Positions 23,600-50,335 of a stretch of 64,000 bases of DNA are shown in pieces. Below the pieces are notes generated by a model. That model made no database searches. It saw only the letters and a program-made list of their open reading frames with translations, and had not been told where the DNA came from. The stretch's first letter is position 1. Every line of letters begins with the position of its first letter. Both the position numbers and the translations under genes were made by a program. Source of the stretch: an uncultured Gammaproteobacteria bacterium (GTDB taxonomy: Bacteria > Patescibacteriota > Microgenomatia > Levybacterales > UBA12049); assembly GCA_964416445.1 (NCBI GenBank), contig CAYQEE010000002.1:42691-106690 (forward strand). Direction: 5' to 3'.

Positions 23600-26880
<3,281 letters not shown>

Positions 26881-27002
26881 AAATGTTAATATGCATTAAC
26901 ACTAAAAAGACCTTCTTCTCCTCACTTGTCAAAGAGCTTCTCTCATTATCATCTAAGGTAAACCCCCTCTTTCTAGGGGGCTTGCCCTAGATGATACTTA
27001 AG

Positions 27003-27075
27003 TGGACCGGAAGAGATTCGAACTCTCGACCTTCGCGATGCAAACGCGACGCTCTACCAGCTAAGCTACCGGCCC
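27003..27075 (-). tRNA. tRNA-Ala (anticodon UGC), at the 5' side of the 23S gene
   Basis: Minus-strand sequence GGGCCGGTAGCTTAGCTGGTAGAGCGTCGCGTTTGCATCGCGAAGGTCGAGAGTTCGAATCTCTTCCGGTCC. Anticodon loop UUUGCAU gives UGC. G3:U70 is present. Confidence 0.85.
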
Positions 27076-27307
27076 AAACGCCATAATACTTCCGATCCAA
27101 ATTAAAAATTTATTTTTCAAGCGGAAATCAATTTAAATTATGAGACGATATGAAGACCCTACTGCGGGATTACAAAATATATGAAAAGACTTCTCATAAA
27201 ACGAATTGAGTTTCCATGAATGATAGTAGCACAGGATTTTGAGGCTGTCAACGGGGAAAAATTATTTACTTTATCTTAACGTTTAGAATATACTAATTAT
27301 ACCATTT

Positions 27308-30300
27308 ATGATTGAATTAGATCAAGCTCCCGCACCAAAACCACTAGCAAAACCAGCAAAAGTTAAAGTAAAACCAATATCCGAAAGAGTAACTACAAGC
27401 GCTCGTGATACATTAGAGAAAATGTTTGGATTGGCTCCATTACTCCCCGCGCCGACGAAAACTCCTGATAAAAAAAACAAAAAACCACCTGAGGTGGATA
27501 TTACTCGCCAACCTACACAAAAATTGCCAAGTATAGATATCGAAGACCAACCGACTCAAATCTTACCACGTATAGATATGACCCGCCAACCTACACAAAA
27601 ATTGCCGAGTATAGATATTGAAGACCAACCGACTCAAATCTTACCACGAATTGAGCTATCTCTCCCTCATACTAATGAAGCTCCTGTACAGTTTGATTAT
27701 CCCCCCCTGCCACCAATGGAACCGCATCATCCCGAGAATGAACCTATTCAGCAAGAAGAACGTTTTCCAAATATGGATAATGAATACATGCAAAAGGCAC
27801 AGCAATATCTAGAGCCTGTTATGTTAGCACCAGCTTTAGAATCTACCTTTCAGTATCTTTCAGAAACAAGAGACCTTGATTTTGATTTTAACTCTGAACG
27901 ATATAAACAAATCCATGAAATTACAGATAAAATGAGCGAAGGATTTTTGTTTAAACCCAGAGTGGTTATTATGCGAAAAGGCAACGATGCATTCATTGGA
28001 TCTGATGGCACTATATTTCTTGCTCAAGGATTAATAAATAAACTTGATACGTTAGACGAAGTTGGAGCAGTTTTAGCTCATGAAATTAATCACCTTATTC
28101 ATATGGATGTTTGGCGTACTAACTCAAATAATGCACGACTATTAGATTATGAGGCCGTCGGTTGGTTACAAGAATTTGCAGCCGATATTGGAACAATGAA
28201 ACTCTTGGAAAAAGCTGGTCTTTCATCAGATGCATTTCGGACTGCAATTATGAAACTCGATTCAACAAAAGGTTTTACGCACCAAAGTGGTGGCATGCGT
28301 GCATTAGAAGTACAATTAGGACATGAAATTTGGAATTATGACACGAGTGATCAACCGCAACAACCAATGCCTGAGACATGGAAACAGCAAAGCAGGCTAA
28401 CAAACCTCGAAATTATAAATAATGGGAAACATAAGAGAGATTATGGTTACTACCCTGACGGAAAAAATCCAGAGGTATTTGCCGCATTAGCAAAGTTACA
28501 TAGAGTAGATTTAGAAAAACTTTACTCGCAAGATAATCGTCTTGATTATAACTTTGGGGAAAGTGTCATAAGATTTTTGTCTGAACGATTACGCACATAT
28601 GGATATACCGAAAGTCAAATCCTCACTTACTTTAGTTCATCATTAAAAGATGTAAATTTTGCAATTATAAAGGAGCCAGAACAGGCGGTTGACGTATTTG
28701 ATCATTTACATGAATATATTAACGATAAAACAAATGAAAAAATAGAAAACGACCTTTTTGGAATAAAACCGAACAAATGGCGTGAGGCAACAACATTTCC
28801 ACTTGCTAGCCTTCTTTATAAGCTTATGAAAAATATAAAAGTTGGGAATTCTTGGCACTCAGAAGAATTGCCAGTTACCGAAGATAGTTTTATTCATATC
28901 CTCCAAAAAATCTCAGAATTTGAAAAACTTAGTTTTGGTATTACTGCTGAAACGTATATTACAAAAGCAGTTCTTGAATTTATAGATTCCGAATTCTCTC
29001 ATGGCTGGTGGGAGAATGGAAAGGAAGTTAATTTACCAAAGACAAAAGCGTTTTTATACAAATTAAAGGCTGCTCATATTCCCATAAAAACAGAGCAAGT
29101 AATTAGCAACTATCAACTTGATTATGGTCTCTTAGCACGACATCATTTTAGAGATACTGATTATCTGAATATCATTGATTTTTTGGAAACAGAGTATGAA
29201 GGAAAACCTCGGACAAGTATTGAAGAGAAAATTGATACATTTTTCCAAGATATGTCTCGTGGACCAAAATCTCAAGAGGATATCAATAAACAAGGAGCTC
29301 AAGTAAAGGATTTTTTGTTGCGACTTAAGTTTGATTTTAATCGGGAAGAGATTCCTGAACATATCCGAATTACGTATATAACAGATATTTTAACTCGAAT
29401 TAATGGATCAAATTATGCAGTATCTGATAATATGGTAAAGTATTTAAAAAATAACTTTCCATCGGTTATCAGTTCTGGCTTAACTCCACCAGAATTGCTT
29501 TATCATAATCAGACACAAAATGGCGATACATTTATTATTTCACCTGATATGCAGGAAGATCTTATCACTTTATTAAAACCGGAGAATCTTGAACGATATA
29601 ATCAAAAGATTCAAGCAAATATACAAAAAATGATTAAATTTAACTTACAATTAATGACCATTAAAAGTCTCTTTAAAGAGGATTCACAAGGATACTACGA
29701 CACAATAGTCAAAATAATGAACGAAAGTGGTATTAACAGTAACAATATAGCTTTCTCTGAACTAATGCATTTATCCAGCCCACTTTTTAAGAATGATAAA
29801 TATTTTAACAATTATCAATTATTATTATCGGGTGGAAGTTTCGATAAAAGTGTTGCCTCAGTAGACTGTAATAACTATGATCTTCTAACACAACTACCAT
29901 TTATAAAAGACCTCATCGATAGAAATAAAGAAATTTCCGTAAATTCTATGGACGAACTCTATAATTATACAAATAATCTTACTATGTCTTTAGAAGGTAT
30001 ACCCGGTTTTCGAAGGGAATTATTTTCAGATTCTCTAACTACGTTAATTATCACAAAACCAATTCAAGAGGCATACTTACGATTACTAAAGCAAGGGATT
30101 CCTGAGAATCAACTCTCTGCACAATATAAATTTATTCGTGATTATTTTCCTGAAGACCCCGGTAAAAAGGGCTTTTTAAAAGAATACAATTTAAAAATCC
30201 TTTCATCCCCTAGCCTTTCACTCCAACATAAAATAAATCATTTACGTGAGAATATTCGATACATTGGACCTGAAGGACTTATTATTCTTGGTGAACAAAT

Positions 30301-39078: not shown

Positions 39079-42000
39079 TTATTGTAAGGTAAGGTCTTTA
39101 GTTTTTTCATACAAGGTAATAAAAAGGAATAATTTATCATCAACGTCTGGCGCACTAAGATTAATTAACGGTCGTTGTGATAAAAATTTCGCTAATAAAA
39201 TTGATACTCCTCGAGATAAATTAGGATCAATTGATAAATCTGGGAATAAAACAGCTAATGCATTTACTCTATCTATGAGATTAATATCAAGGGATGGCTC
39301 TTCTTTCATACTTTCCTGAGGAGGATTCTTTTTAAGCCATACGACCATCTCTCTAAACCATCCGGCAGCTGTAGATTCACTTACGCCTGCAAGAAGAGCT
39401 TCATCCTTAAATTCTCTTGATCTGTTTAACGCGAGCGAGCGAGATTCTGCTGCTATTGGGGAGAGATGTTCATCAGCTAAAAATAGCTCGAGGTTCATTT
39501 GATCAACAGCAACAAATCCTTCTGGAGATTGATTCAGCTGGGCTAATTGTTCAAGTGATGGATTGAGAGGAGTATAAGGTGGAGCAGATGGTGCTGTATT
39601 TGGTTGACTCTCTACTGGTTGTTGCACTGGTCTTTGAGGTTCTGGTGTTAAAAGATTATCAAGAGCCTGTTGCAGTTGAGGCGTTATCGGAACATCTGCA
39701 TTTTGAGGTTGCGATCCTCCACCCGGAAGAGTTGGAGTTTCAACAGGTGGTACTCCCCTTCCATTTACTTCTTGAGAAATAGGTGCAACTGGAGAAACTT
39801 GGGGGGTATTAGGCCGAGGATAAGTAGGAACATTCATTCCATTCCCCGATCCTGCTTCAATAGGCGTTTGCGGTAGTGGAATACCTCCTACTGGTTGATT
39901 AAGTTGCGATGGCCCAGAAGCTTGCCGATTCCCTGGCATTGGAATATTAACTCCATACTGATACGGATTATTTACATTAATTTGTGGTTGTGGTGGAATA
40001 TTTGGGCTACCGGGAGGAGGAGTAATATTTGGACCATATTGATAGGGATTATTAGGAGTTTGCGGTACGTTTGGTGATGGCTGAATATTAGCGCCTGATT
40101 GGTAGGGAGAATTTGGAGCCAAAGGTGGTGTGGGAACATTCCCAACTGCTGCCGGTATTGGTGGTACATTCGGAGTAGTTGGAACCGGTGGAAGATTTGG
40201 GTTACCTCCATTATTTTGAGGCCCCGGCGCTTGATTAATAGGAGGAATATGGACTTTCTTTTTCTTTGGTGGTTCAGGAGGAGGAAGTCCAATACCAGGG
40301 AGATTTTGTTGATTATTTATATTTGGGCTAATGGGAGCATTAAGTGCAGCATTTGCGGGAGATAACGCATTCGCATTATAAGCGTTATTGGGAATTTGAG
40401 GCCTATTCTGTCGTGCAAACCCACTCGAACTGTATGGACTATTTGGGTTATAAGGACTATACGGATTATATGGACTATATGGACTCGGAATAATTGGAGG
40501 TGGAACTTGCGGAATGGGAGGAAGGCCTGGTGGAATTGTCGGACCGGGTGTTCGATCAACTAAGTCTCGCGGGTTAAAGATTAAAGGAAGAATAGGAGCA
40601 TCTATTGGTCCACCTGGCCCTGGTATGTTTTGCGGTACAACTCCAAAATCAATTTCGTTTATTGGTGTCGTAATTGCAGTTCTTGGTACAATAGAGACAG
40701 TTGCAGTAGATGTTTCGTTAAAGGGACGTGAAGCAAAGAAATGCATTGTAATTCCTTTTGTTCCATGTTGGATCCAATTAGAAGATTCTATAATCTGTCC
40801 ATTCGAATCAGTTGGAACACCCGCACCAACCCAGGCAACGAGTTCATTCGGCGTTCCTTGAGGAGTTTGTAATTCCGGAGGAAGAATTGCTGTACCATCC
40901 TTGCCACATGGTAACCAAAGTTCTTGACCACTTTTCAAACGTACAACCATAACCATTTTATCGTGTGGAATTTGGGGAGGATGGAGTAAATCGGTAATAT
41001 TTTTGTTTACATCAATAATATGTTGTAATTCTGTATCGTTATGATTTCCTAAGAATTTTGTATACTCAGAAATCAATGCTTGATATTTATCAGGATGGGT
41101 AAGCGCGTCTTTCGGCAATAATCCTGCTTCAACAAGACCTTGTATACGAGACTCAAGACCAAATTGCTCTGCGGTAATTGGATTTGCTAATACTCCCCCA
41201 AAGTTTAATGCCCCTTTATGGTTAAACCAGTTGCCTCCATTCGTCCAATCACGACCATCTCCCCAATGTAAATCTAATTCTAATCCTGCATACTGCTGAG
41301 GTACTCCTCCATTCATTCTTGTTAAATTGGTATAGTCACTAAATATATGATGATAACTCTCACCATAGTTTTGTGATTCAATATATGCTCCATATTCAGT
41401 AAGTAAATCTGGATGATGTTGGTAGAGATTATTCCAAGCATCGTTGAGTTGTTGAACTGTTTTAGGATTGTCTACAACTGCCCATAAATTTGCACTTGGA
41501 TCTGAAGCATTTTGAGGATCGAGAACGAGATTTCCATTTGCATCATGAGACATAATGAAGGTATAGTCATGTCCATTATGATCAATAACTGTTCGCATAT
41601 GGGACAAATCAACATTTTTGACATGATAACCGTCGGGTAAATAAAAATTAATTCCTGATTTATCGTGAATAAGATGACCATAATTTTGTTCTGATTGAAT
41701 TATTTTAAGTATTTCACTATCGTTTCCATGATTTGTGAGATCCCATTGTTTGAAGGCAGTCTCAACATGGCCTTTTTGTAATAATGCATGTTCTTTTGTC
41801 GCTATTTGAAAGTCAGAAGGCAATACATCATGACTGCTTAAAGGTGCACCTAAATGCCCTCCATTAATATCACTAATATATTGATAATTATATGTTTTGC
41901 CAGTAACATGATCGATAAAGGTAATTCTATGCTGTCCTGTTAAAGACGCGTCCCATCCTTTCGGTAAATTTAGCTGTAAATTGTTTGCCACTTTATCAAT

Positions 42001-43887
42001 ATGAAATCCTGGTCCCGAGGAGATAAGATTTGGTTGACGATGAAATATTGTATCAATTGTATTTCCTACGTTATGAACCCCAGCCGCAATTGATTGTCCA
42101 GCCTCACCAATTACTTGTCCTGGATGAGATACTGTTTGCACAGCATCGCTCACTAATTGTCCCGGATGTTGTGCAATCGTCTCAATAACCGTTGGTGCAA
42201 CAACTTGATGAAGTACATCTCTTTCAAATAAGGCAATTGCTTCTTGATCAATAAGTCCAAGAGTAATTGCTGAGATAGCAGCAATACCTGCCTGTCTTCT
42301 TCCTTGCGCACTAATATATGCTTTTGCACGTTTATCCTTTATTTCAATATCTTTTTGAATTTTATCCTTCCAGGCCTGTTTAAATCGCTCTATTAATGTA
42401 TTGACATCCGCTTCAGCCATCCCATCATCAATAAGCGATTGACGCAGTGCTGTGGCTTCATGCTCTAATTCTTTTTCTTTGGGTTTTATACTTTTATCTT
42501 CAAAATTAATAAGTCCTTTATTTAATAATCGATAATCTAATCTTGTGATAATCTCAGCTGCTCGTTCAGCGACCTTATCTCTATCAGATCCATGATTATA
42601 CGTTACCGTATGCAAAGCATTTTTCAATTCAGCAACTGATTTTCGCTGAATACCATATAGATCAGCTCCTCCTCCATTCATAAGCTCGCTATATGACGCC
42701 ATTTCATATTCAGTTGCTCGTAACGCTTCACGACGTTTTACTTCTCCCCTGGCAAGAAATTCTTTAACAAACTGAGGAGTTATTTTTGAAGGAATTTTCT
42801 TATATTCTCGGTTGAGTAAATAATTTTTTGCTCTCCCCGGCGCTAATTTAGCAATTCCTCTCAGAATTAATCCTGGAGGCTTAGGTGCTCTGGGACCAGG
42901 TGGAGTAGCATAATCTCCACCATATTCCCCTGCAGCTCGTCCTTTTTGAATATCTTTTTTCGCCTCATACCTTCCTCTGAAGCCAGCTATAACCACACCA
43001 ATTGTCGTACCAACAGCAGCTCCTGCAACAGGAATAAATCTTCTCGCCGCACCGGAAACAAGTCGCGAAGCGCCAAAAGCAACAATTGAACAGGCAAGTG
43101 CTGCACCAGTAGGACTTAAGAGATATCTCATTCTGGACCGTTGTGACCAACTGATAAACTTATCAAATTTACTCAGTTCAATACCTGTTGCATGAGCCCA
43201 TTTTGGATTCGCGATAAGAATGTTAATATTTTTATCAATTTCAGCTAAGGCATATTTATTCGTATCGATATCCTGTTTACATCGTTGGCCAAATTTTAAA
43301 AATTCGCCTGTCGCAGCAAATTCATCCGCTACGGTTGCAAAAGGATCATCTTTGTTATATATCTTCTTAACAAATTCAGATAGATTTGGGTCCTTACTGT
43401 CTGCGTATCTTCGAGCAAATTCCCGAAGGTAATCGTGCATTGTTGTCTCATCGGTAATTCTTCCATCTATCACTGGTTTCACCAGTTCTTCAATAATTTT
43501 TTCTTTCAAAACACCTTGCGCCTTATGAATATCACGAGCTCCTTCTGTCAATTGAGAGGTATATTGCTCGCGAACATGGTGAACTGCCTCTACTTCTTCT
43601 CTATCATGTTGTACCTTTTGTGCCGCTGCTACAGCGGTTGTAGCATCCATAGTAAGGAAGGAATTACCGGCTGCCTTCATGCGCTCTCGTAAATCACGAG
43701 CATTCTTGTAAATATAATAATCTTCAAAGGTGTGTAAACCAATTTTCTTCCAAAATCCTGCGCTCTTCATATCTCTTTCCCATTGAGCACGAGCTTCATA
43801 ATTTGCCCTTTTTGTAAGTTCTTGGCTCTTGTTGGCAATTACTCCAGTATTCTCTGGAGTTACTGGTATATCGGGTGTTACGACCAT
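39079..43887 (-). CDS. Giant (1602 aa) membrane protein: coiled N-terminal region, two TM helices (~aa 255-300), His-rich middle, long proline-rich repetitive region (PYSPYNPYSPYNP; NPYQYGxNI repeats), acidic C-terminal domain
   Basis: ORF track. TM stretch LACSIVAFGASRLVSGAARRFIPVAGAAVGTTIGVVIAGF. A ~450-aa Pro/Asn/Gln-rich low-complexity region. No recognisable catalytic motif. Confidence 0.55.
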   Translation of the reverse strand: MVVTPDIPVTPENTGVIANKSQELTKRANYEARAQWERDMKSAGFWKKIGLHTFEDYYIYKNARDLRERMKAAGNSFLTMDATTAVAAAQKVQHDREEVEAVHHVREQYTSQLTEGARDIHKAQGVLKEKIIEELVKPVIDGRITDETTMHDYLREFARRYADSKDPNLSEFVKKIYNKDDPFATVADEFAATGEFLKFGQRCKQDIDTNKYALAEIDKNINILIANPKWAHATGIELSKFDKFISWSQRSRMRYLLSPTGAALACSIVAFGASRLVSGAARRFIPVAGAAVGTTIGVVIAGFRGRYEAKKDIQKGRAAGEYGGDYATPPGPRAPKPPGLILRGIAKLAPGRAKNYLLNREYKKIPSKITPQFVKEFLARGEVKRREALRATEYEMASYSELMNGGGADLYGIQRKSVAELKNALHTVTYNHGSDRDKVAERAAEIITRLDYRLLNKGLINFEDKSIKPKEKELEHEATALRQSLIDDGMAEADVNTLIERFKQAWKDKIQKDIEIKDKRAKAYISAQGRRQAGIAAISAITLGLIDQEAIALFERDVLHQVVAPTVIETIAQHPGQLVSDAVQTVSHPGQVIGEAGQSIAAGVHNVGNTIDTIFHRQPNLISSGPGFHIDKVANNLQLNLPKGWDASLTGQHRITFIDHVTGKTYNYQYISDINGGHLGAPLSSHDVLPSDFQIATKEHALLQKGHVETAFKQWDLTNHGNDSEILKIIQSEQNYGHLIHDKSGINFYLPDGYHVKNVDLSHMRTVIDHNGHDYTFIMSHDANGNLVLDPQNASDPSANLWAVVDNPKTVQQLNDAWNNLYQHHPDLLTEYGAYIESQNYGESYHHIFSDYTNLTRMNGGVPQQYAGLELDLHWGDGRDWTNGGNWFNHKGALNFGGVLANPITAEQFGLESRIQGLVEAGLLPKDALTHPDKYQALISEYTKFLGNHNDTELQHIIDVNKNITDLLHPPQIPHDKMVMVVRLKSGQELWLPCGKDGTAILPPELQTPQGTPNELVAWVGAGVPTDSNGQIIESSNWIQHGTKGITMHFFASRPFNETSTATVSIVPRTAITTPINEIDFGVVPQNIPGPGGPIDAPILPLIFNPRDLVDRTPGPTIPPGLPPIPQVPPPIIPSPYSPYNPYSPYNPNSPYSSSGFARQNRPQIPNNAYNANALSPANAALNAPISPNINNQQNLPGIGLPPPEPPKKKKVHIPPINQAPGPQNNGGNPNLPPVPTTPNVPPIPAAVGNVPTPPLAPNSPYQSGANIQPSPNVPQTPNNPYQYGPNITPPPGSPNIPPQPQINVNNPYQYGVNIPMPGNRQASGPSQLNQPVGGIPLPQTPIEAGSGNGMNVPTYPRPNTPQVSPVAPISQEVNGRGVPPVETPTLPGGGSQPQNADVPITPQLQQALDNLLTPEPQRPVQQPVESQPNTAPSAPPYTPLNPSLEQLAQLNQSPEGFVAVDQMNLELFLADEHLSPIAAESRSLALNRSREFKDEALLAGVSESTAAGWFREMVVWLKKNPPQESMKEEPSLDINLIDRVNALAVLFPDLSIDPNLSRGVSILLAKFLSQRPLINLSAPDVDDKLFLFITLYEKTKDLTLQ

Positions 43888-44430: not shown

Positions 44431-45348
44431 TTACTTACTTCTAATCCACCGTTCAATATCTAATGCAGCCATACATCCATATCCTGCAGCAGTGACTGCC
44501 TGCCTATATTGTTCATCTTCAACATCGCCTGATACAAAGATCCCTTCTATATTTGTTCGTGTTCCATTTTGAGCTCGGATATAATTATGTTCATTCAATT
44601 CTACTCCTTTGAATATTCTTGTATTTGGCATATGACCAATAGCAACAAAAACACCATCAATAGGTATTTCAGTAGTTTTATTTGTTTTATTATTGAAGAG
44701 TTTTACTTTTTCCACTTTATTTTCCCCCAAAATTTCTTTTATTTCTGTATTATAGAGAATATTAATCTTTGGATGTTTTTTTATTTTATCCTGCATAATT
44801 TGACTTGCACGAAAATCATCCTTTCTATGAATAACCGTAACATGATTAGCAACTCCTGCCAAAACAAGTGCTTCTTCCATCGCACTATCTCCTCCCCCAA
44901 CTACAATAACATTTTTATTGCGAAAAAACGGTGCATCACAGGGAGCACAAGAAGATACTCCTCTCCCTATTTTCTCTGCTTCACCAGGAACGCAAAGCCA
45001 TTTTGTATCTGCTCCGGTAGCAATGAGGACAGATTTTGATTTATATGTTTTCCCTTCAACGATCACCGAGAACGGCCCACCACTCTGTTTACTAAAATCA
45101 GTTTCGGGTAAATCAGCGTCTATAAACTTTGCTCCATGATGTTCTGCCTGTTTACGCATCGCAGCCATTAATTCAGGTCCTTGTATTCCTTCAGGAAATC
45201 CTGGAAAATTTTCAACAAGGGTAGTGAGCATTAATTGGCCTCCCCACTTTAAGCCAGCAATTACAAGAGTTTCCAAATTTGCTCGAGTGGTATAGATCGC
45301 CGCCGTAAGGCCTGCAGGACCTGATCCAATTATAATAACATCAAACAT
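44431..45348 (-). CDS. trxB: Thioredoxin-disulfide reductase
   Basis: FAD-binding GSGPAGLTAA. Redox-active CAPC (SCAPCDAPFF). NADPH-binding GGGDSAMEEA. Confidence 0.9.
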   Translation of the reverse strand: MFDVIIIGSGPAGLTAAIYTTRANLETLVIAGLKWGGQLMLTTLVENFPGFPEGIQGPELMAAMRKQAEHHGAKFIDADLPETDFSKQSGGPFSVIVEGKTYKSKSVLIATGADTKWLCVPGEAEKIGRGVSSCAPCDAPFFRNKNVIVVGGGDSAMEEALVLAGVANHVTVIHRKDDFRASQIMQDKIKKHPKINILYNTEIKEILGENKVEKVKLFNNKTNKTTEIPIDGVFVAIGHMPNTRIFKGVELNEHNYIRAQNGTRTNIEGIFVSGDVEDEQYRQAVTAAGYGCMAALDIERWIRSK

Positions 45349-45370: not shown

Positions 45371-45697
45371 TTAATTATTGAGGATTTCATCAATTGCTTT
45401 TTTAAGTACTTCTTTTCCTTGGGCACCAATAAGTGTCTTGACTACTTTACCTTTTTTGAAGAAGGCAAGCGTAGGAATACTCATAACACCATACGTAGAA
45501 GCTGTTTGTTGATTTTCATCAACATTTAATTTCCCAACAACTATTTTATCTCCATATTCTTTTGCAAGTTCTTCTATAATTGGTCCAACAATTCTGCATG
45601 GCCCACACCAAGGAGCCCAAAAATCTACTAGCACTGGTTTATCAGAATTTAGTACTGTTTGTTGAAAATTTTGATCGCTTACAACTAAATCAGCCAT
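45371..45697 (-). CDS. trxA: Thioredoxin
   Basis: 108 aa. WAPWCGPCR active site. Confidence 0.9.
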   Translation of the reverse strand: MADLVVSDQNFQQTVLNSDKPVLVDFWAPWCGPCRIVGPIIEELAKEYGDKIVVGKLNVDENQQTASTYGVMSIPTLAFFKKGKVVKTLIGAQGKEVLKKAIDEILNN

Positions 45698-45789: not shown

Positions 45790-47361
45790 TTATTCTAAAT
45801 CTTCTCTTTTTGCATGAAGATAAACAAATAATTCCTCAAAAAAGCCGAAAATAACTTTAAATGGAGCTTCTATAAGAAAATCAAAGATAAAGATAAGAAT
45901 ATTAATTTGAGAAATTCCATCAGTTAATCTCATACCGACTTTAATAATTGGTAAGAAAAGAATATCTATAAAAGGCGTTAATAACCCTTGCCCATTTTCT
46001 ACTGTATAAGCTTGTGCGGTTAGATTAATTCGATAAGATAGAAACGAAACAATTGTTATGAAAAAGATAAATACTGTTTGACTTACTGGATTAAAATTCA
46101 ATTTCGTTAATACCCAAATCATTAATCCAAAACTTAAACCAAAGAAAAGAATCCATAATAATGCAAAAATGCTAGTAGTAAGTGATCTTGTCTTTTTTGG
46201 TTTAATATACAATGTTAAATTCGGTGAAAGTTTCGGATGCTCTTCAAAAAGAATTGAGCGTGCTTTTGCTAAAATTCTTCGGGAATTAGATAACCCTGGT
46301 GTTTTAATAAAAAAGCTAACAATTATCATGAGTAATGGAGGGGCAGCTATATTAATAATTAATCCTGTCCAAATAATATGGCCATAGGTAATTCTGTCAT
46401 ATGTTCCTTCAACCGCAAATGCAAAAATAACTTTTGTTAAAAGTAAAAAGAAAACACTTCGAACAATCGCAGTTCGAACTTTAGAAGATATACTTTTATA
46501 CCGAGCATTACAAGCTGCAAAAATTGCTGAACCAAATTTTTCTTGATTTTCAATTAACGCAGGTATCGCATCTTTATGGGCATGTAATATATCCTCTAGA
46601 ATAAAAAACGTCGGAGTCTGTCTCTTTACAAATACATAAATTTTCTCTTTAAGTTGATAACTCAATTGATAGTTTATTTCTTTATATCCTCTCAAAAAAT
46701 TCTTTGCAATTTCATCTACACTACTCTCATTTAAAGGAGGAAAAATTTGTAAGAACAAATGATAGCGAAGAAATGCTAAATCATCTTTCGCTAACGCCCG
46801 ATGAACAGCAATAAAAACTTGAACATTCTTCGTATCTTCCGTATCATCCACGATCTCGATATGTTCTTTTAAAATATGATACATAAAATTATTCATTGCA
46901 TCTTTATCTTTATTTGGGTTTAATTCTTTAGCAATTTGACAAGACATTAATTGAAACATCCACGTATTGAGAGTTTTATCGGGAATTTTATGATAAGACA
47001 AAATTTTCTCTTTTAATTCAAGATATCTATCAATAACATGGGACGTCCGAATAATTAAACTTTGAGGAAGACTATTATCCGGAAAATATCGAGCCCAAAC
47101 AAGTTCACGAAGCAAAGGTTCTGCATTTTTTGCTCCTGATCCTCCTAGTAATAATCTTCTTTTCAAAATACGTTCTATAGCATTTTTCAAAATGATTTCT
47201 TCTTCTTGATAATCCATAGCATTTCTCAATTTTTCATACCAAGATGCTAATTCAGAAACGAAACGATTGACGGAAATTTTAGGATCTGTATTGATTTCAG
47301 ATTTTGATTGGAAAATGCTTATTACGGCACGTGCAAGAGGAGAAAGCTGTTGTACATTCAT
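45790..47361 (-). CDS. Hypothetical protein with ~300-aa soluble N-terminal domain and C-terminal multi-TM region
   Basis: 523 aa. Hydrophobic helices in the last ~200 aa. No motif recognised. Confidence 0.5.
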   Translation of the reverse strand: MNVQQLSPLARAVISIFQSKSEINTDPKISVNRFVSELASWYEKLRNAMDYQEEEIILKNAIERILKRRLLLGGSGAKNAEPLLRELVWARYFPDNSLPQSLIIRTSHVIDRYLELKEKILSYHKIPDKTLNTWMFQLMSCQIAKELNPNKDKDAMNNFMYHILKEHIEIVDDTEDTKNVQVFIAVHRALAKDDLAFLRYHLFLQIFPPLNESSVDEIAKNFLRGYKEINYQLSYQLKEKIYVFVKRQTPTFFILEDILHAHKDAIPALIENQEKFGSAIFAACNARYKSISSKVRTAIVRSVFFLLLTKVIFAFAVEGTYDRITYGHIIWTGLIINIAAPPLLMIIVSFFIKTPGLSNSRRILAKARSILFEEHPKLSPNLTLYIKPKKTRSLTTSIFALLWILFFGLSFGLMIWVLTKLNFNPVSQTVFIFFITIVSFLSYRINLTAQAYTVENGQGLLTPFIDILFLPIIKVGMRLTDGISQINILIFIFDFLIEAPFKVIFGFFEELFVYLHAKREDLE

Positions 47362-47598
47362 ATATTTGGATTATAGCATGATTACGGTATAAATTTAATT
47401 TTAAACAAGTATCCTATCATAGAGTAAGAGATAAGAACAATATAAATTGACAAACTAATAAGTAAGTTACTCTATATTCTATACTATTAATATAGTAAGA
47501 AAACGGAGAAAAATGGTGTTTTGCACCTCTTTTCCTTACTCTCTTCAATATTGCATATTGACAAACATTTGCGAATGTTTTTATACTAGAGCCTAACA

Positions 47599-48561
47599 AT
47601 GCCTAGAAAGAAAAAAGTTTTATCGGAAGAAATAACAAAAGATTCTCCTCCGATCTCCTCACAAAATATCCGATTGGAAAATAATAAAGAGTGTTGTAAT
47701 AATTGTGGCAAATGTGAAAATTGCCTTCATCCAATGGGAAATATTAAAAATTATACTCCTCTCCTTATGCTTCTTCTCATTGTATCTTCTTTTTTGCTCG
47801 GAATGTTACTAACAAAATTAGGATATCTAGAATCAAATGGAAGCTACCCTACAACCACGAGTGGAACAACGGGAACAAATCAACAAGCACAAAATCCAAC
47901 ATCTGCACCAAAACCTCTTCATGTTGCACAGGCAACAGGTATGGATGCAACAGCATTCAAAAAATGTCTTGATTCAGATAAGTATGCTCAGCAAGTTGCT
48001 GCAGATCTGTCTGATGGTCAAAAAGCAGGTGTAACGGGAACCCCTGCTTTCTTTATTGATGGTCTCTCATTAGTTGGTGCACAACCATATACTGTATTTC
48101 AACAAACCATAAATCAAGAATTAGCAGGATCACGTGCTAATACTCCTAATATTTTTTCTCAGTTAAGCGCAGCATTGAGTATGAAAGCATATGCTCAAAC
48201 TGTTACTGATACAACGACACCAACTCCAGCAGCAAGAGTTAATGTAACGGTTGGTCCATTTCCAGTTCTTGGAAATCCAAATGCTCCGGTAACAATTATC
48301 GAATATGCTGATTTTCAATGTCCTTTTTGTAAAGAAGCGTTCACTACAGTTGAACCTAATATAATAAAAGATTATGTAAATACGGGAAAAGCTAAATTTG
48401 CGTTTAAAAATTACGCCTTCTTAGGCCCTGAATCTATCGTTGCAGCAGAGGGTGCCTATTGTGCAAATGATCAAGGTAAATTTTGGGCATACCATAATTT
48501 TTTATATCAACACCAAGGTGCAGAAAGTTCAGGACAGTTCACGAAGACAAACTTAGAGTAA
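47599..48561 (+). CDS. Membrane-anchored DsbA/BdbD-like thiol-disulfide oxidoreductase with apparently circularly permuted thioredoxin fold and a cytoplasmic Cys-rich N-terminus
   Basis: N-terminus CCNNCGKCENC, then one TM. Next comes the segment normally C-terminal in DsbA (…MDATAFKKCLDSDKYAQQVAADLSDGQKAGVTGTPAFFIDG…, the cis-Pro loop region). It is followed by the segment normally N-terminal (…APVTIIEYADFQCPFCKEAF…GKAKFAFKNYAFLGPESIVAAEGAYCANDQGKFWAYHNFL…). The ORF ends right after. Confidence 0.6.
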   Translation: MPRKKKVLSEEITKDSPPISSQNIRLENNKECCNNCGKCENCLHPMGNIKNYTPLLMLLLIVSSFLLGMLLTKLGYLESNGSYPTTTSGTTGTNQQAQNPTSAPKPLHVAQATGMDATAFKKCLDSDKYAQQVAADLSDGQKAGVTGTPAFFIDGLSLVGAQPYTVFQQTINQELAGSRANTPNIFSQLSAALSMKAYAQTVTDTTTPTPAARVNVTVGPFPVLGNPNAPVTIIEYADFQCPFCKEAFTTVEPNIIKDYVNTGKAKFAFKNYAFLGPESIVAAEGAYCANDQGKFWAYHNFLYQHQGAESSGQFTKTNLE

Positions 48562-48581
48562 TATAAATTACTCCTACTTAC

Positions 48582-49145
48582 ATGCGCATGCCCACATGGA
48601 AAGAACTAATTATACGAGAATTCTTCTCTTTTAAAGCCCTCTTGCTTATTCCTTTTTTTACACTTCTCTATGCTACCTTATCAGTAGTTCTTCTCAATTA
48701 TCGTTTTATTTATCAAATTTTCAGTGAAAATTTTCAGCTACATTATAAAATAAATCTATTACTAGCACTCTTTTCTGGCTTATGGACAACATTATCACTA
48801 AATGACTTTATTCTCTTTGTAATAAATGCCCTTCTTGTAGGTATCAATTGTTATCTAATATTAAAAACCTTTTACTCATTAGAACATGACGGAGCTGTCA
48901 AGTTTTCAATAGGTGGGGCAACACTTATTGGATTAGTGACTACGGGTTGCACTTCTTGTGGACTATCGTTATTGTCATTATTAGGTTTATCGACATCTTT
49001 CTCACTTCTCCCTTTTCATGGTTTAGAATTACATCTGGTTGCTATTACGGTCTTACTGATCTCATTAGTATATATGACAAAAAAATTATACGCAGTTCAT
49101 TCCTGTAAACTACATTCAACTAAAAAGTTGACCGATATATCCTGA
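48582..49145 (+). CDS. Small polytopic membrane protein with intramembrane CxxC (GCTSCG)
   Basis: 187 aa with about 5 TM helices. CTSC lies at the start of a helix and a further Cys is in INCYLI. It sits next to the DsbA-like gene. A DsbB/VKOR-like partner role is speculative. Confidence 0.4.
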   Translation: MRMPTWKELIIREFFSFKALLLIPFFTLLYATLSVVLLNYRFIYQIFSENFQLHYKINLLLALFSGLWTTLSLNDFILFVINALLVGINCYLILKTFYSLEHDGAVKFSIGGATLIGLVTTGCTSCGLSLLSLLGLSTSFSLLPFHGLELHLVAITVLLISLVYMTKKLYAVHSCKLHSTKKLTDIS

Positions 49146-49198
49146 TTTGTCCTTGGATAACTAACGAGAAGAGATAATATGGTAAAATACAAGGACCA

Positions 49199-50335
49199 AT
49201 GAAAAAAACAATAATATTTTTTGTATTATTTATTGCTCTTCTTTTCATTGCTCAGCCACTCTTTGCACAATCATCTCCGCTCTCTGAACAACCTCTCGCT
49301 CAACAAGAGTATTTTGTGAAAGGAAAAGTTATCCAAATTATAAAAGAGAGTTACCAACAAGTTGATGGATATAATACTCTTACGCAAGTTGTTAAAGTAC
49401 AAATCCTTGAAGGCCCTCAAACAAATAAGATTGTTACTATTCAAAGAGGAAGTGATGTTAGACTAACCTCATCGCAAAAAATTGATGCAGGTACAACAGT
49501 TATTCTCGATGTTCTTAATGGCACAGGAACAGGAGCCCAATACAGTATTAGTGATACTTACCGGTTAAATTACCTACTCTATATTGGTATTGCTTTCTTC
49601 TTTGTTACATTACTTTTTACTGGAAAAAAAGGGCTAGGAGCAATCATCGGTTTACTTATTAGTTTACTCACCATTATGCTCTATATTGTTCCGCAAATTT
49701 TACATCACCAAAATCCCCTCATTGCAAGTTTGGTTGGATCTCTGATTATACTTATTGTAACTACCTATTTAGCTCATGGAATTTCAAAACAAACAAGCAT
49801 TGCAGTACTATCGACATTTTTTTCTCTCATTGGTGCTGTTATCTTTGCAATCATTTGTGTGAATATCGCCAGACTCGCAGGATTAGGTACGGAAGATTCC
49901 TATCTTCTGGAATTGAACCCAACACAGGCAATTGATCCAAAAGGATTACTTCTCGGAGGCATTTTAATAGGAACATTAGGAGCGCTTAATGATATTACGA
50001 CAACACAAGTAGCTGCGATATTTACGTTATTCAAACATAATAAGAAACTAAACTTCTTACAGTTAGCTGAACAAGGTTTTCTAATAGGTCGAGAACATAT
50101 TCTTTCATTAGTTAATACGCTCGTACTGGCATACGCGGGAACATCATTAACTATATTTATTTTCTTCGCCCTTAATCCTTCTCATCTTCCTTGGTGGGTA
50201 ATTATTAATAACGAATCTGTTGCAGAGGAAATAGTGAGGACAATTGCCGGGAGTGCCGGTCTTATTCTTGCTGTTCCAATTACTTCCTTTCTTGCTGCGT
50301 GGATCGCGACGAGAGAAGGATTAAAAGAAAGCTAA
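49199..50335 (+). CDS. YibE/F-like integral membrane protein (signal peptide + soluble domain + multi-TM)
   Basis: 378 aa. Signal MKKTIIFFVLFIALLFIAQPLFAQ. ~110-aa extracytoplasmic domain, then 6-7 TM helices. The architecture fits the YibE/F family. The family call is tentative. Confidence 0.4.
   Translation: MKKTIIFFVLFIALLFIAQPLFAQSSPLSEQPLAQQEYFVKGKVIQIIKESYQQVDGYNTLTQVVKVQILEGPQTNKIVTIQRGSDVRLTSSQKIDAGTTVILDVLNGTGTGAQYSISDTYRLNYLLYIGIAFFFVTLLFTGKKGLGAIIGLLISLLTIMLYIVPQILHHQNPLIASLVGSLIILIVTTYLAHGISKQTSIAVLSTFFSLIGAVIFAIICVNIARLAGLGTEDSYLLELNPTQAIDPKGLLLGGILIGTLGALNDITTTQVAAIFTLFKHNKKLNFLQLAEQGFLIGREHILSLVNTLVLAYAGTSLTIFIFFALNPSHLPWWVIINNESVAEEIVRTIAGSAGLILAVPITSFLAAWIATREGLKES

What the first reader, a model, noticed from the sequence alone, without database searches (positions are those of the whole stretch)
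47599..49145. Circularly permuted DsbA/BdbD-like oxidoreductase with cytoplasmic CCxxCxxCxxC cluster, next to a CxxC membrane protein and trxB-trxA
In the 320-aa ORF the segment that is C-terminal in DsbA/BdbD (…VAADLSDGQKAGVTGTPAFFIDG, the cis-Pro loop) comes first, after the TM anchor. The segment that is normally N-terminal (…PVTIIEYADFQCPFCKEAF…GKAKFAFKNY…KFWAYHNFL) comes last, and the ORF stops right after it. This is the order expected from a tandem duplication followed by truncation, so the domain appears circularly permuted. A Cys-rich motif (CCNNCGKCENC) sits on the predicted cytoplasmic side. The adjacent 187-aa membrane protein carries GCTSCG inside a helix. Upstream are trxB and trxA and a large membrane protein. 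Together these suggest a non-canonical disulfide-relay module.
Basis: partly seen in the sequence, partly recalled or inferred. Interest (0 to 1): 0.65.

Follow-up and report, generated by a model that had tools for sequence, protein, structure and literature searches.

The report
Naturally circularly permuted DsbA oxidoreductase
This candidate-phyla bacterium's membrane-anchored disulfide-bond enzyme (DsbA) has its two sequence halves swapped yet is still predicted to fold into a complete DsbA, and it sits beside an uncharacterised CxxC membrane protein that is probably its redox partner.

Summary
The ORF at 47599-48561 (320 aa) is a DsbA/BdbD-family protein with its halves in swapped order. 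From the N-terminus it reads: cytoplasmic tail, TM anchor, C-terminal half (cis-Pro loop), linker, N-terminal half (CPFC active site), stop.

It is not an assembly artefact:
- 27 of the 120 best database homologues share the order and end at the same residue.
- An independent assembly reproduces the locus.
- The gene sits in the syntenic slot that holds a canonical DsbA in relatives.

AlphaFold gives pLDDT above 90 for both halves. The only full-domain PDB match is 1UN2, the engineered circular permutant of E. coli DsbA (termini Q100/T99).

Species-representative genomes hold further permuted DsbAs with three break classes inside a 22-residue stretch of the helical domain. Two- and three-domain tandem DsbAs also exist. 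This fits repeated duplication followed by truncation.

The neighbouring 187-aa protein belongs to a large family absent from Pfam and NCBIfam (1386 cluster representatives). It has an invariant intramembrane CxxC and lies directly downstream of DsbA in many unrelated contexts. In Chloroflexi that slot holds VKOR. It is a candidate new DsbA partner; the direction of electron flow is unresolved.

The CCxxCxxCxxC tail occurs only in the three closest sequences.

The parts
47558..47587 (+). Promoter-like site TTGACA-18-TATACT (11 of 12 matches), ending 12 nt before the ATG. This would give a very short or absent leader.
   Evidence: This is a consensus match only; the region as a whole is not enriched over shuffles.
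47599..48561 (+). Circularly permuted, N-terminally membrane-anchored DsbA/BdbD-family thiol-disulfide oxidoreductase (320 aa).
47692..47724 (+). Cytoplasmic Cys cluster CCNNCGKCENC (aa 32-42). It is a lineage-specific insertion of unknown role.
   Evidence: Present only in P0001-P0003. AF2 pLDDT is below 50 here.
47755..47832 (+). Transmembrane anchor helix (aa 53-78).
   Evidence: AF2 helix H53-78 with block pLDDT 87-90. Aligns to the TM region of canonical relatives.
47911..48132 (+). Former C-terminal half of the DsbA domain (aa about 105-178). It contains the rest of the helical domain, the cis-Pro loop (T148-P149, nt 48040-48045), two beta strands, the last helix, and conserved Cys123.
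   Evidence: Pfam DSBA profile positions 115-190; BdbD residues 130-194; invariant columns in A5; pLDDT 95-98.
48133..48249 (+). Linker joining the old C-terminus to the old N-terminus (aa about 179-217). It includes a short predicted helix at 185-193.
   Evidence: Linker length varies from 34 to 71 aa across the family. No significant similarity to the TM anchor was found.
48250..48561 (+). Former N-terminal half (aa 218-320). It contains beta1, the active site C241-P-F-C244 (nt 48319-48330), alpha1, beta3, the first helical-domain helices with Cys288, and the new C-terminus ...TKTNLE followed by the stop codon.
   Evidence: Pfam Thioredoxin_4 profile positions 6-96; BdbD residues 18-109; pLDDT 92-98.
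48582..49145 (+). 187-aa polytopic membrane protein of a family absent from Pfam and NCBIfam. It has an invariant G-C123-x-x-C126-G (nt 48948-48959) at a helix break and a near-invariant Cys175 (nt 49104-49106). Candidate redox partner of DsbA.
45790..47361 (-). 523-aa membrane protein with no family match. It is conserved between trxA and DsbA in related loci.
45371..45697 (-). Thioredoxin (trxA).
   Evidence: PF00085, E 6e-34.
44431..45348 (-). Thioredoxin reductase-like flavoprotein (trxB).
   Evidence: Pyr_redox_2, E 3e-52.
49199..50335 (+). YibE/F-family membrane protein. It is a variable occupant of the same syntenic block.

Best explanation
The 320-aa ORF is a genuine, functional, naturally circularly permuted DsbA.

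Architecture. Compared with canonical membrane-anchored DsbAs of related Patescibacteria, the chain has been re-threaded. After the cytoplasmic tail and TM anchor it starts in helix alpha4 of the helical insert. It runs through the cis-Pro loop to the old C-terminus, crosses a 35-70-aa linker to the old N-terminus, and runs through the CPFC active site to a new C-terminus in the alpha3/alpha4 region.

Fold and function. The two halves pack into one complete thioredoxin-plus-helical-domain fold. The protein probably does the job of the canonical DsbA it replaces at the same chromosomal locus, which is thiol-disulfide exchange on exported proteins outside the membrane.

Origin. The most likely route is tandem duplication or fusion of DsbA followed by loss of the first N-half and the second C-half. 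Different break points in other lineages suggest this happened more than once.

Partner. The co-transcribed 187-aa CxxC membrane protein is most likely the membrane redox partner of DsbA. It is linked to DsbA of either chain order.

Shown versus inferred. Shown: the chain order, its conservation, the synteny, the predicted fold and the gene linkage. Inferred: activity, the evolutionary route, and the partner's role and direction of electron flow.
For: Order of the halves.

Conservation:
- 27 of the 120 best hits are C-then-N. They share 45-75% identity and come from NCBI, JGI, ENA and Logan assemblies. All end within one residue of ...NLE or ...NLL.
- Invariant in the alignment of 26 permuted sequences: C241, P242, C244, T148, P149, and the second Cys pair C123/C288. 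Canonical relatives keep the same Cys pair.

Independent assembly.

Orthology by synteny: the block trxB-trxA-(523 aa) | DsbA | (187 aa) (YibE/F) | acylphosphatase-pth holds a permuted DsbA in the window, L005, L019 and L027. It holds a canonical DsbA in L007, L018, L025, L037, L046, L048, L079, L091 and L092.

Fold:
- AF2 block-mean pLDDT is 91-98 over aa 111-180 and 211-300, and 87-88 over 301-320.
- With Foldseek, canonical DsbAs align over only about 90 columns.
- The engineered permutant 1UN2 (cpDsbA_Q100T99) aligns over 215 columns with TM 0.60 normalised to the target.

Origin:
- Ten NCNC tandem DsbAs are among the best hits, and one NCNCNC is in L066.
- The window-type permuted clade is monophyletic and nested within canonical forms.
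- Other permuted lineages group with tandem forms.
- Break points in canonical (P0021) numbering fall at about 181-186, about 193 and about 200.

Partner:
- The 187-aa family lies directly downstream of DsbA in 8 of 9 metagenome loci retrieved by the 187-aa protein itself. The ninth locus is too short to judge.
- The same pairing occurs in non-syntenic contexts L013 and L014.
- It occurs in 11 of 80 DsbA-centred genome loci, including two Nitrososphaeraceae archaea.
- VKOR occupies the same slot in Chloroflexi loci L056, L083 and L096.
Against: - No experiment has tested folding or activity.
- I could not inspect the AF2 coordinates, so I did not measure how close CPFC lies to the cis-Pro loop or C123 to C288.
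- The trees are neighbour-joining on about 170 residues without support values, so the number of independent permutation events is uncertain.
- The tandem DsbAs found are not the closest relatives of the window-type clade, so no direct intermediate was found for it.
- The linker shows no significant trace of a second TM anchor.
- Several permuted DsbAs lack the 187-aa gene at the locus (L003, L005, L017).
- Two distant members of the 187-aa family have no DsbA within 4 kb (L015, L016).
Confidence: 0.85

Rival explanations
1. Assembly or frameshift artefact: two partial DsbA genes were joined by misassembly near 48.1-48.3 kb.
For: Only the unusual order itself.
Against: - All three segments are in one frame with no stop codon.
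- The same architecture appears in 27 cluster representatives from independent projects.
- An independent assembly differs by 2 SNPs in 2963 nt.
- The same break appears in loci L001, L003, L005 and L017.
Confidence: 0.01
2. Decaying remnant of a two-domain tandem DsbA. It would be a non-functional or merely structural protein whose halves no longer form an active enzyme.
For: Tandem DsbAs exist. The linker is variable and has low pLDDT.
Against: - The catalytic CPFC, the cis-Pro Thr-Pro and the second Cys pair are invariant across 26 sequences that have diverged to about 45% identity.
- It is the only DsbA at the syntenic slot.
- The model of both halves is high-confidence.
Confidence: 0.05
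3. Domain-swapped oligomer. The C-half of one chain would pair with the N-half of another, so the functional unit would be a dimer and not a re-threaded monomer.
For: Circular permutants and duplicated domains can swap. The tools offered no multimer model or PAE.
Against: - The monomer model forms a full domain that matches the monomeric engineered permutant 1UN2 over 215 columns.
- Even the short linkers (the 34-37-aa junction segments listed) are longer than the few residues needed to join the DsbA termini, which lie close together. That distance rests on my knowledge of the engineered permutants.
Confidence: 0.08
4. The module runs in the reducing direction. Cytoplasmic TrxB and TrxA would feed electrons through the 187-aa CxxC membrane protein, acting as a CcdA/DsbD/ScsB analogue, to the DsbA-like protein. 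That protein would then act as a reductase, isomerase or protector and not as the primary oxidase.
For: - trxB or trxA lie next to DsbA in several different arrangements. They are divergent in the window and many relatives. They form trxA-trxB-DsbA on one strand in L044, and DsbA-trxB in L041 and L089.
- K/R counts across the family place loop 98-112 and the C-terminus with Cys175 in the cytoplasm. They put the CxxC about one third of the way in from the cytoplasmic face.
- Copper and metal genes lie near the pair in L013, L007 and L001. PDB sequence hits include ScsC-like proteins.
Against: - The closest solved relative is the oxidase BdbD.
- VKOR, an oxidant, fills the same gene slot in Chloroflexi.
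- There is no Pfam match to the DsbD/CcdA families.
- Much of the trxB linkage could be inherited synteny.
Confidence: 0.35
5. The 187-aa protein is a thiol-based metal transporter (MerT/MerF-like) or other metal-handling protein, and its adjacency to DsbA is incidental.
For: - It has an intramembrane Cys pair plus a cytoplasmic Cys.
- Zip, YibE/F, ZnuA/ABC-3/Fur and Cu-ATPase/HMA genes lie nearby in several loci.
Against: - The DsbA pairing is far more consistent than any metal gene. It is same-strand with spacing from overlap to about 100 nt (larger only in L007), and it occurs in unrelated neighbourhoods.
- There are no metal-family profile hits.
Confidence: 0.1

Closest known systems
BdbD of Bacillus subtilis (PDB 3EU3/3EU4); Pfam Thioredoxin_4 (PF13462) and DSBA (PF01323)
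   Same: It is the best sequence and structure relative (E 4e-21; 37-38% identity over 90-94 aligned columns, rmsd 2.1-2.2 A). It shares the CPxC active site, the Thr-Pro cis-Pro loop and the helical insert, and it is extracytoplasmic.
   Different: BdbD has the canonical N-to-C order. Here the order is C-half then N-half, with the break between BdbD chain residues 109 and 130. The active site is CPFC where BdbD has CPSC. A second conserved Cys pair (C123/C288) is present. There is no adjacent DsbB-type BdbC.
Engineered circular permutant of E. coli DsbA, cpDsbA_Q100T99 (PDB 1UN2; from the random circular permutation work of Hennecke, Sebbel and Glockshuber 1999, cited in PMC13552848)
   Same: It has the same topology, with new termini in the alpha3/alpha4 region of the helical domain. 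It is the only PDB entry that aligns sequentially over the whole domain (215 columns, TM 0.60 normalised to the target).
   Different: It is man-made, soluble, and only 15% identical. Its break lies a few residues earlier than in the window protein, according to my own alignment from the remembered E. coli sequence. The other natural lineages (L027, L034, L036, L042) break almost at the engineered position.
Canonical membrane-anchored DsbAs of Patescibacteria (for example P0021 and P0022, and the Levybacteria protein P0041)
   Same: About 70% identical over the N-half. They share the same TM anchor, the same syntenic locus, the same Cys pattern and the same 187-aa neighbour.
   Different: They read straight through ...SKANLEQFASDLGLN..., the point where the permuted protein has its termini.
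Tandem two- and three-domain DsbAs (P0023, P0024, P0035, P0038, P0048, P0085; L066)
   Same: A single local alignment spans their first C-half, the linker and their second N-half (58-66% of the query). This is the arrangement expected of a duplication intermediate.
   Different: They keep all four (or six) half-domains. They are not the nearest relatives of the window-type clade.
VKOR and DsbB, the membrane quinone reductases that reoxidise DsbA
   Same: The 187-aa protein occupies the gene slot directly after DsbA that VKOR holds in the Chloroflexi loci. It is a small helical membrane protein with a CxxC at the start of a helix.
   Different: - No homology was detected: hhalign probability 0.3%, no Pfam hit, no Foldseek PDB hit.
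- It lacks a second loop Cys pair.
- Its CxxC is predicted nearer the cytoplasmic face.
CcdA / DsbD-beta / ScsB transmembrane thiol-disulfide electron conduits
   Same: Membrane-embedded redox cysteines; thioredoxin-system genes nearby; a periplasmic thioredoxin-fold client.
   Different: - No profile match.
- The cysteines form a single CxxC in one helix plus one C-terminal Cys. CcdA-type proteins instead carry one Cys in each of two pseudo-repeats.
- It has about 4-5 helices where CcdA has 6.

Membership tests
DsbA/BdbD family (Pfam PF13462 Thioredoxin_4 / PF01323 DSBA) | Significant profile match above the curated cut-off. | tested here: met
   Thioredoxin_4 118.9 bits (cut-off 23.2); DSBA 69.4 bits (cut-off 25.6).
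DsbA/BdbD family | CxxC active site at the N-terminus of helix alpha1. | tested here: met
   C241-P-F-C244 aligns to the CPSC of BdbD. It is invariant in 26 permuted sequences. AF2 helix H242-260 starts at the motif.
DsbA/BdbD family | cis-Pro loop (Thr/Val-Pro) before beta4. | tested here: met
   T148-P149 is invariant and aligns to the 'ATP' of BdbD. The cis conformation itself cannot be tested here.
DsbA/BdbD family | Thioredoxin fold with an inserted helical domain, forming one compact domain. | tested here: met
   AF2 block-mean pLDDT is 87-98 over both halves. There is a full-domain Foldseek match to 1UN2, TM 0.60 normalised to the target. This is a prediction, not an experiment.
DsbA/BdbD family | Canonical sequential order: beta1-alpha1(CxxC)-beta3-helical domain-cisPro-beta4-beta5-alpha7. 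| tested here: not met
   The order is permuted. The protein is a topological variant of the family.
DsbA/BdbD family | Extracytoplasmic location. | tested here: inconclusive
   An N-terminal K/R-rich tail, one TM helix (aa 53-78) and a Thr/Gln/Pro-rich tether are arranged as in canonical relatives. Topology was not measured.
DsbA/BdbD family | Thiol-oxidase activity with reoxidation by DsbB or VKOR. | not testable with these tools
   The proteins of the locus that were scanned are not DsbB or VKOR. The rest of the window's ORFs and the rest of the genome were not examined.
Naturally circularly permuted proteins arising by duplication and truncation | Same fold and homologous segments in cyclically shifted order. 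| tested here: met
Naturally circularly permuted proteins arising by duplication and truncation | Existence of tandem-duplicated homologues as intermediates. | tested here: inconclusive
   NCNC and NCNCNC DsbAs exist and group with some permuted lineages. None is sister to the window-type clade.
VKOR (PF07884) / DsbB (PF02600), for the 187-aa protein | Profile or fold similarity, a four-helix bundle, and a CxxC plus a loop Cys pair. | tested here: not met
   - No Pfam hit at E up to 1, for the protein itself or for 39 family members.
- hhalign against a VKOR alignment gives probability 0.3%.
- No PDB fold hit at E up to 0.001.
- Only a CxxC plus one further conserved Cys.
CcdA/DsbD (PF02683, PF13386), for the 187-aa protein | Profile match; one conserved Cys in each of two pseudo-repeats. 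| tested here: not met
   No Pfam or NCBIfam hit. The Cys pattern differs.

The most novel reading that the evidence does not exclude
The 187-aa intramembrane-CxxC family would be a third, previously unrecognised class of membrane redox partner for DsbA, unrelated to DsbB/VKOR and CcdA/DsbD. It has at least 1386 cluster representatives at 50% identity, mostly in Patescibacteria, with members in DPANN archaea and distant relatives in Nitrososphaeraceae. It would explain how organisms generally thought to lack quinones and respiratory chains drive or control extracytoplasmic disulfide chemistry. Alongside it, DsbA itself has been circularly permuted several times in nature, at the site that laboratory permutation of E. 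coli DsbA showed to be tolerated.
Probability: 0.35. Interest if true: 0.85.

Novelty: new variant of a known kind. Interest (0 to 1): 0.62.

Why it matters
DsbA is the textbook disulfide catalyst and a classic model for laboratory circular permutation. A conserved, apparently recurrent natural permutation, broken in the same helical-domain region as the crystallised engineered permutant, is a natural replicate of that experiment. It gives protein-evolution and folding researchers a set of matched canonical, tandem and permuted orthologues at a single genomic locus.

There is also a practical point. Annotation pipelines and sequential structure searches see only half of the domain, so such proteins get mis-scored.

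The tightly linked CxxC membrane family, which Pfam and NCBIfam lack, is a concrete and testable candidate for the missing membrane partner of DsbA. It occurs in candidate-phyla bacteria, which by general knowledge lack quinone biosynthesis. How disulfide bonds are made or controlled in these organisms is an open question.

Tried and rejected
1. The inter-half linker (…FSQLSAALSMKAYAQ…) as a decayed second TM anchor. An HMM of canonical TM regions scored the long linkers no better than shuffled versions; one of 13 fell below 1% and the rest were between 9% and 100%. Rejected as unsupported.
2. Tandem DsbAs as direct ancestors of the window-type clade. In the NJ tree they form an outgroup. They are kept only as proof that the arrangement exists, and as possible relatives of other permuted lineages.
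3. The 187-aa protein as a divergent VKOR, DsbB or CcdA. No Pfam or NCBIfam hit, hhalign probability 0.3%, no PDB fold match.
5. A metagenome scan with the broad alignment A3 failed because it had no conserved stretch to search with. The narrower alignment A1 worked.
6. The small ORFs downstream of DsbA in loci without the 187-aa gene were mostly spurious antisense frames.
7. Literature searches for a natural circularly permuted DsbA, or for DsbA partners in Patescibacteria, found only work on engineered permutants. The library is incomplete, so this is weak evidence of novelty.
8. Misassembly was rejected.
Full report
**1. What is in the sequence**

The window carries a 320-aa ORF at 47599-48561 (+). 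Twenty nucleotides later there is a 187-aa ORF (48582-49145), followed by a YibE/F-family gene (49199-50335). Upstream on the other strand lie a 523-aa membrane protein, trxA and trxB.

The order of the DsbA halves is swapped:
- Pfam Thioredoxin_4 aligns aa 222-311 to profile positions 6-96 of 165. Pfam DSBA aligns aa 96-171 to positions 115-190 of 191.
- Against the solved BdbD structure (3EU3), query 218-307 matches chain residues 18-109 and query 114-178 matches 130-194.
- tblastn with a canonical close relative (P0021, 265 aa) gives three HSPs in a single frame. In order along the DNA they are the TM region, the C-half (57.6% identity) and the N-half (71.6% identity). There are no other remnants in the window.

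**2. It is not an artefact**

- Among the 120 best database homologues, 27 have the order C-then-N, 83 are canonical (N-then-C) and 10 are tandem (NCNC).
- The permuted proteins are 45-75% identical to the query and come from NCBI, JGI, ENA and Logan assemblies. All stop within one residue of ...NLE or ...NLL, and all begin their extracytoplasmic part with ...PLHVAxxIGMD.
- An independent Logan assembly of run SRR12266074 reproduces window 46599-49561 with 2 mismatches in 2963 nt.

**3. It is the orthologue of a canonical DsbA**

One gene block recurs across many Microgenomates-like genomes: trxB-trxA-(about 525-aa membrane protein) | DsbA | (187 aa) (YibE/F) | acylphosphatase-...-pth.
- The DsbA in that slot is permuted in the window, L005, L019 and L027.
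- It is canonical in L007, L018, L025, L037, L046, L048, L079, L091, L092 and others.
The closest named relatives are 'Patescibacteria group' and Levybacteria/Levyibacteriota MAGs.

**4. The fold is predicted to be complete**

- AlphaFold2, run on an alignment of 32 permuted and tandem sequences, gives block-mean pLDDT of 91-98 over aa 111-180 and 211-300, and 87-88 over aa 301-320. It also predicts a confident TM helix at 53-78. The cytoplasmic tail, the tether and the inter-half linker have low confidence.
- Foldseek aligns sequentially. Canonical DsbAs (BdbD, S. aureus DsbA, Wolbachia DsbA1) therefore match over only about 90 columns.
- The one entry that matches across the whole domain (215 columns, TM 0.60 normalised to the target) is 1UN2, the crystal structure of the engineered circular permutant cpDsbA_Q100T99 of E. 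coli DsbA.
- The natural protein thus has the same topology as a laboratory permutant known to fold.

Residues invariant across the 26 permuted sequences are the CPFC active site (C241, P242, C244), the Thr148-Pro149 cis-Pro loop, and a second Cys pair, C123 and C288. Canonical relatives also conserve that pair. By analogy with other DsbAs that have a helical-domain disulfide, I infer that it staples the two sequence-distant halves together. This was not tested.

**5. Origin**

- In the numbering of canonical P0021, the window-type proteins end at residue 192-193 and restart at about 188-196. That is an overlap of about three residues, inside the first turn of helix alpha4.
- A scan of GTDB species-representative genomes returned 80 DsbA loci, of which 10 are permuted.
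- Besides the window type (L017, and probably L019), there are proteins that end right after alpha3, at about residues 181-186 (L027, L034, L036, L042, L044, L069). Two others end after alpha4, at about residue 200 (L021, L039).
- In a neighbour-joining tree of de-permuted domains, the window-type clade is monophyletic and nested among canonical Levybacteria-type DsbAs. The other permuted lineages fall in four or five separate places, several next to tandem two-domain DsbAs. A three-domain DsbA also exists (L066).

This pattern fits repeated duplication or fusion followed by truncation of the outer half-domains, always resolved within a 22-residue stretch of the helical insert. Two caveats apply. 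The trees have no support values. L019 and L027 share the window's synteny, so some of these 'lineages' may be one old event followed by divergence. My idea that the long linker is a decayed second TM anchor was not supported by a shuffle test.

**6. The 187-aa neighbour**

Family properties:
- It has no Pfam or NCBIfam match, either for the protein itself or for 39 diverse family members.
- A full HMM search finds 1386 cluster representatives at 50% identity with E up to 1e-3 (476 with E up to 1e-10). The 150 best hits listed are stand-alone proteins, most about 155-195 aa.
- C123 and C126 are invariant. N89, G111, G127 and C175 are near-invariant.
- AF2 (pLDDT 82.8) predicts an all-helical membrane protein with a helix break exactly at G122-C123, so the CxxC caps helix 124-142.
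- Family-wide K/R counts are 2.5 for the N-terminus, 2.9 for loop 98-112 and 2.6 for the C-terminus, against 0.15-0.7 for the other loops. This places loop 98-112 and the C-terminal Cys175 in the cytoplasm. It puts the CxxC about one third of the way into the membrane from the inside, and the conserved LPFxG loop outside.
- There is no PDB fold match and no profile similarity to VKOR (hhalign probability 0.3%).

Gene linkage:
- It sits directly downstream of DsbA on the same strand in 8 of the 9 metagenome loci retrieved with the 187-aa protein itself.
- The same pairing occurs in two unrelated neighbourhoods, with BlaR/BlaI-like and Cu-ATPase genes (L013) and with conjugation genes (L014).
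- It occurs in 11 of the 80 DsbA-centred genome loci. Two of these are Nitrososphaeraceae archaea with distant but motif-conserving homologues.
- In Chloroflexi loci, the ORF in the same position is VKOR.
- The family pairs with canonical and permuted DsbAs alike. It is missing next to some permuted DsbAs (L003, L005, L017).

I conclude that it is very probably a DsbA redox partner. Whether it oxidises DsbA as a VKOR analogue, or passes electrons from the adjacent thioredoxin system as a CcdA analogue, is open. Two observations favour the reducing direction: the recurrent trxB/trxA linkage in different arrangements (L041, L044, L089) and the cytoplasm-proximal cysteines. Two favour the oxidising direction: the VKOR slot and the kinship with BdbD.

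**7. The Cys-rich tail**

The motif CCNNCGKCENC (aa 32-42) is a 13-residue insertion present only in the query and its two closest relatives, P0002 and P0003. It lies before the TM helix, so it is cytoplasmic if the domain is outside. Its role is unknown. It is not a feature of the permuted family as a whole.

**8. Expression signals**

A near-consensus promoter-like site ends 12 nt before the ATG. No terminator-like site separates the DsbA gene from the 187-aa gene. These are consensus matches only.

**9. Comparison with the known, and novelty**

- The protein is a member of the DsbA/BdbD family by every tested criterion except chain order.
- It works like, and is topologically equivalent to, the engineered cpDsbA.
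- I found no paper describing a natural circularly permuted DsbA or this membrane family, but the searchable library is incomplete.
- I rate the permuted enzyme a new variant of a known kind. The partner family may be something newer.

Noticed in passing
window 45790-47361 (-): A 523-aa membrane protein (soluble N-terminal part of about 300 aa plus several TM helices) with no Pfam or NCBIfam match. It is conserved between trxA and DsbA in L005, L007, L019, L025, L027 and L091. It might belong to the same module.
   Followed up: partly
window 39079-43887 (-): A 1602-aa ORF with a long Pro/Asn/Gln-rich low-complexity C-terminal half. It is probably a large surface protein.
   Followed up: no
window 24001-28000: GC content rises to 0.42-0.46, against 0.27-0.39 elsewhere in the window. 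Possible rRNA genes or foreign DNA.
   Followed up: no
L066:3567-5906: A single ORF in a 'Candidatus Omnitrophota' MAG with three consecutive DsbA domains (NCNCNC).
   Followed up: no
L036:4824-5720 and L042:2573-3442: Permuted DsbAs whose inter-half linker carries an extra conserved Cys pair (…NACTDYSEDLQQFCSD…).
   Followed up: no
L014:1276-1842, L020:5590-6285, L045:5633-6391: DUF3105 proteins recur next to DsbA genes in Patescibacteria loci. L014 and L020 have Pfam hits. For L045 the identification rests on my reading of the sequence only.
   Followed up: no
L041:5549-6550, L089:1394-2341, L044:3311-4938: Thioredoxin reductase (and thioredoxin in L044) lie on the same strand directly beside DsbA in Parcubacteria-type genomes. 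This arrangement differs from the divergent one in the window.
   Followed up: partly
L019, L020, L031, L033, L036, L038 and others (record titles): Many MAG records titled 'uncultured Gammaproteobacteria' carry Patescibacteria-type DsbA genes, and for L019 and L092 also the Patescibacteria-type synteny. The titles are probably wrong taxonomic labels.
   Followed up: no
L001:4124-6687, L007:5533-6258, L016:1192-1929, L013:1-1693 and 6367-6585: Metal-homeostasis genes (ZnuA/ABC-3/Fur, Zip, Cu-type P-ATPase, HMA) recur near the 187-aa family genes.
   Followed up: partly
L085:894-1481 and L086:5787-6374: Nitrososphaeraceae archaea encode distant homologues of the 187-aa family (E 1e-6 to 1e-8, motif STCASCSS plus a C-terminal Cys) directly after their DsbA gene.
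   Followed up: partly
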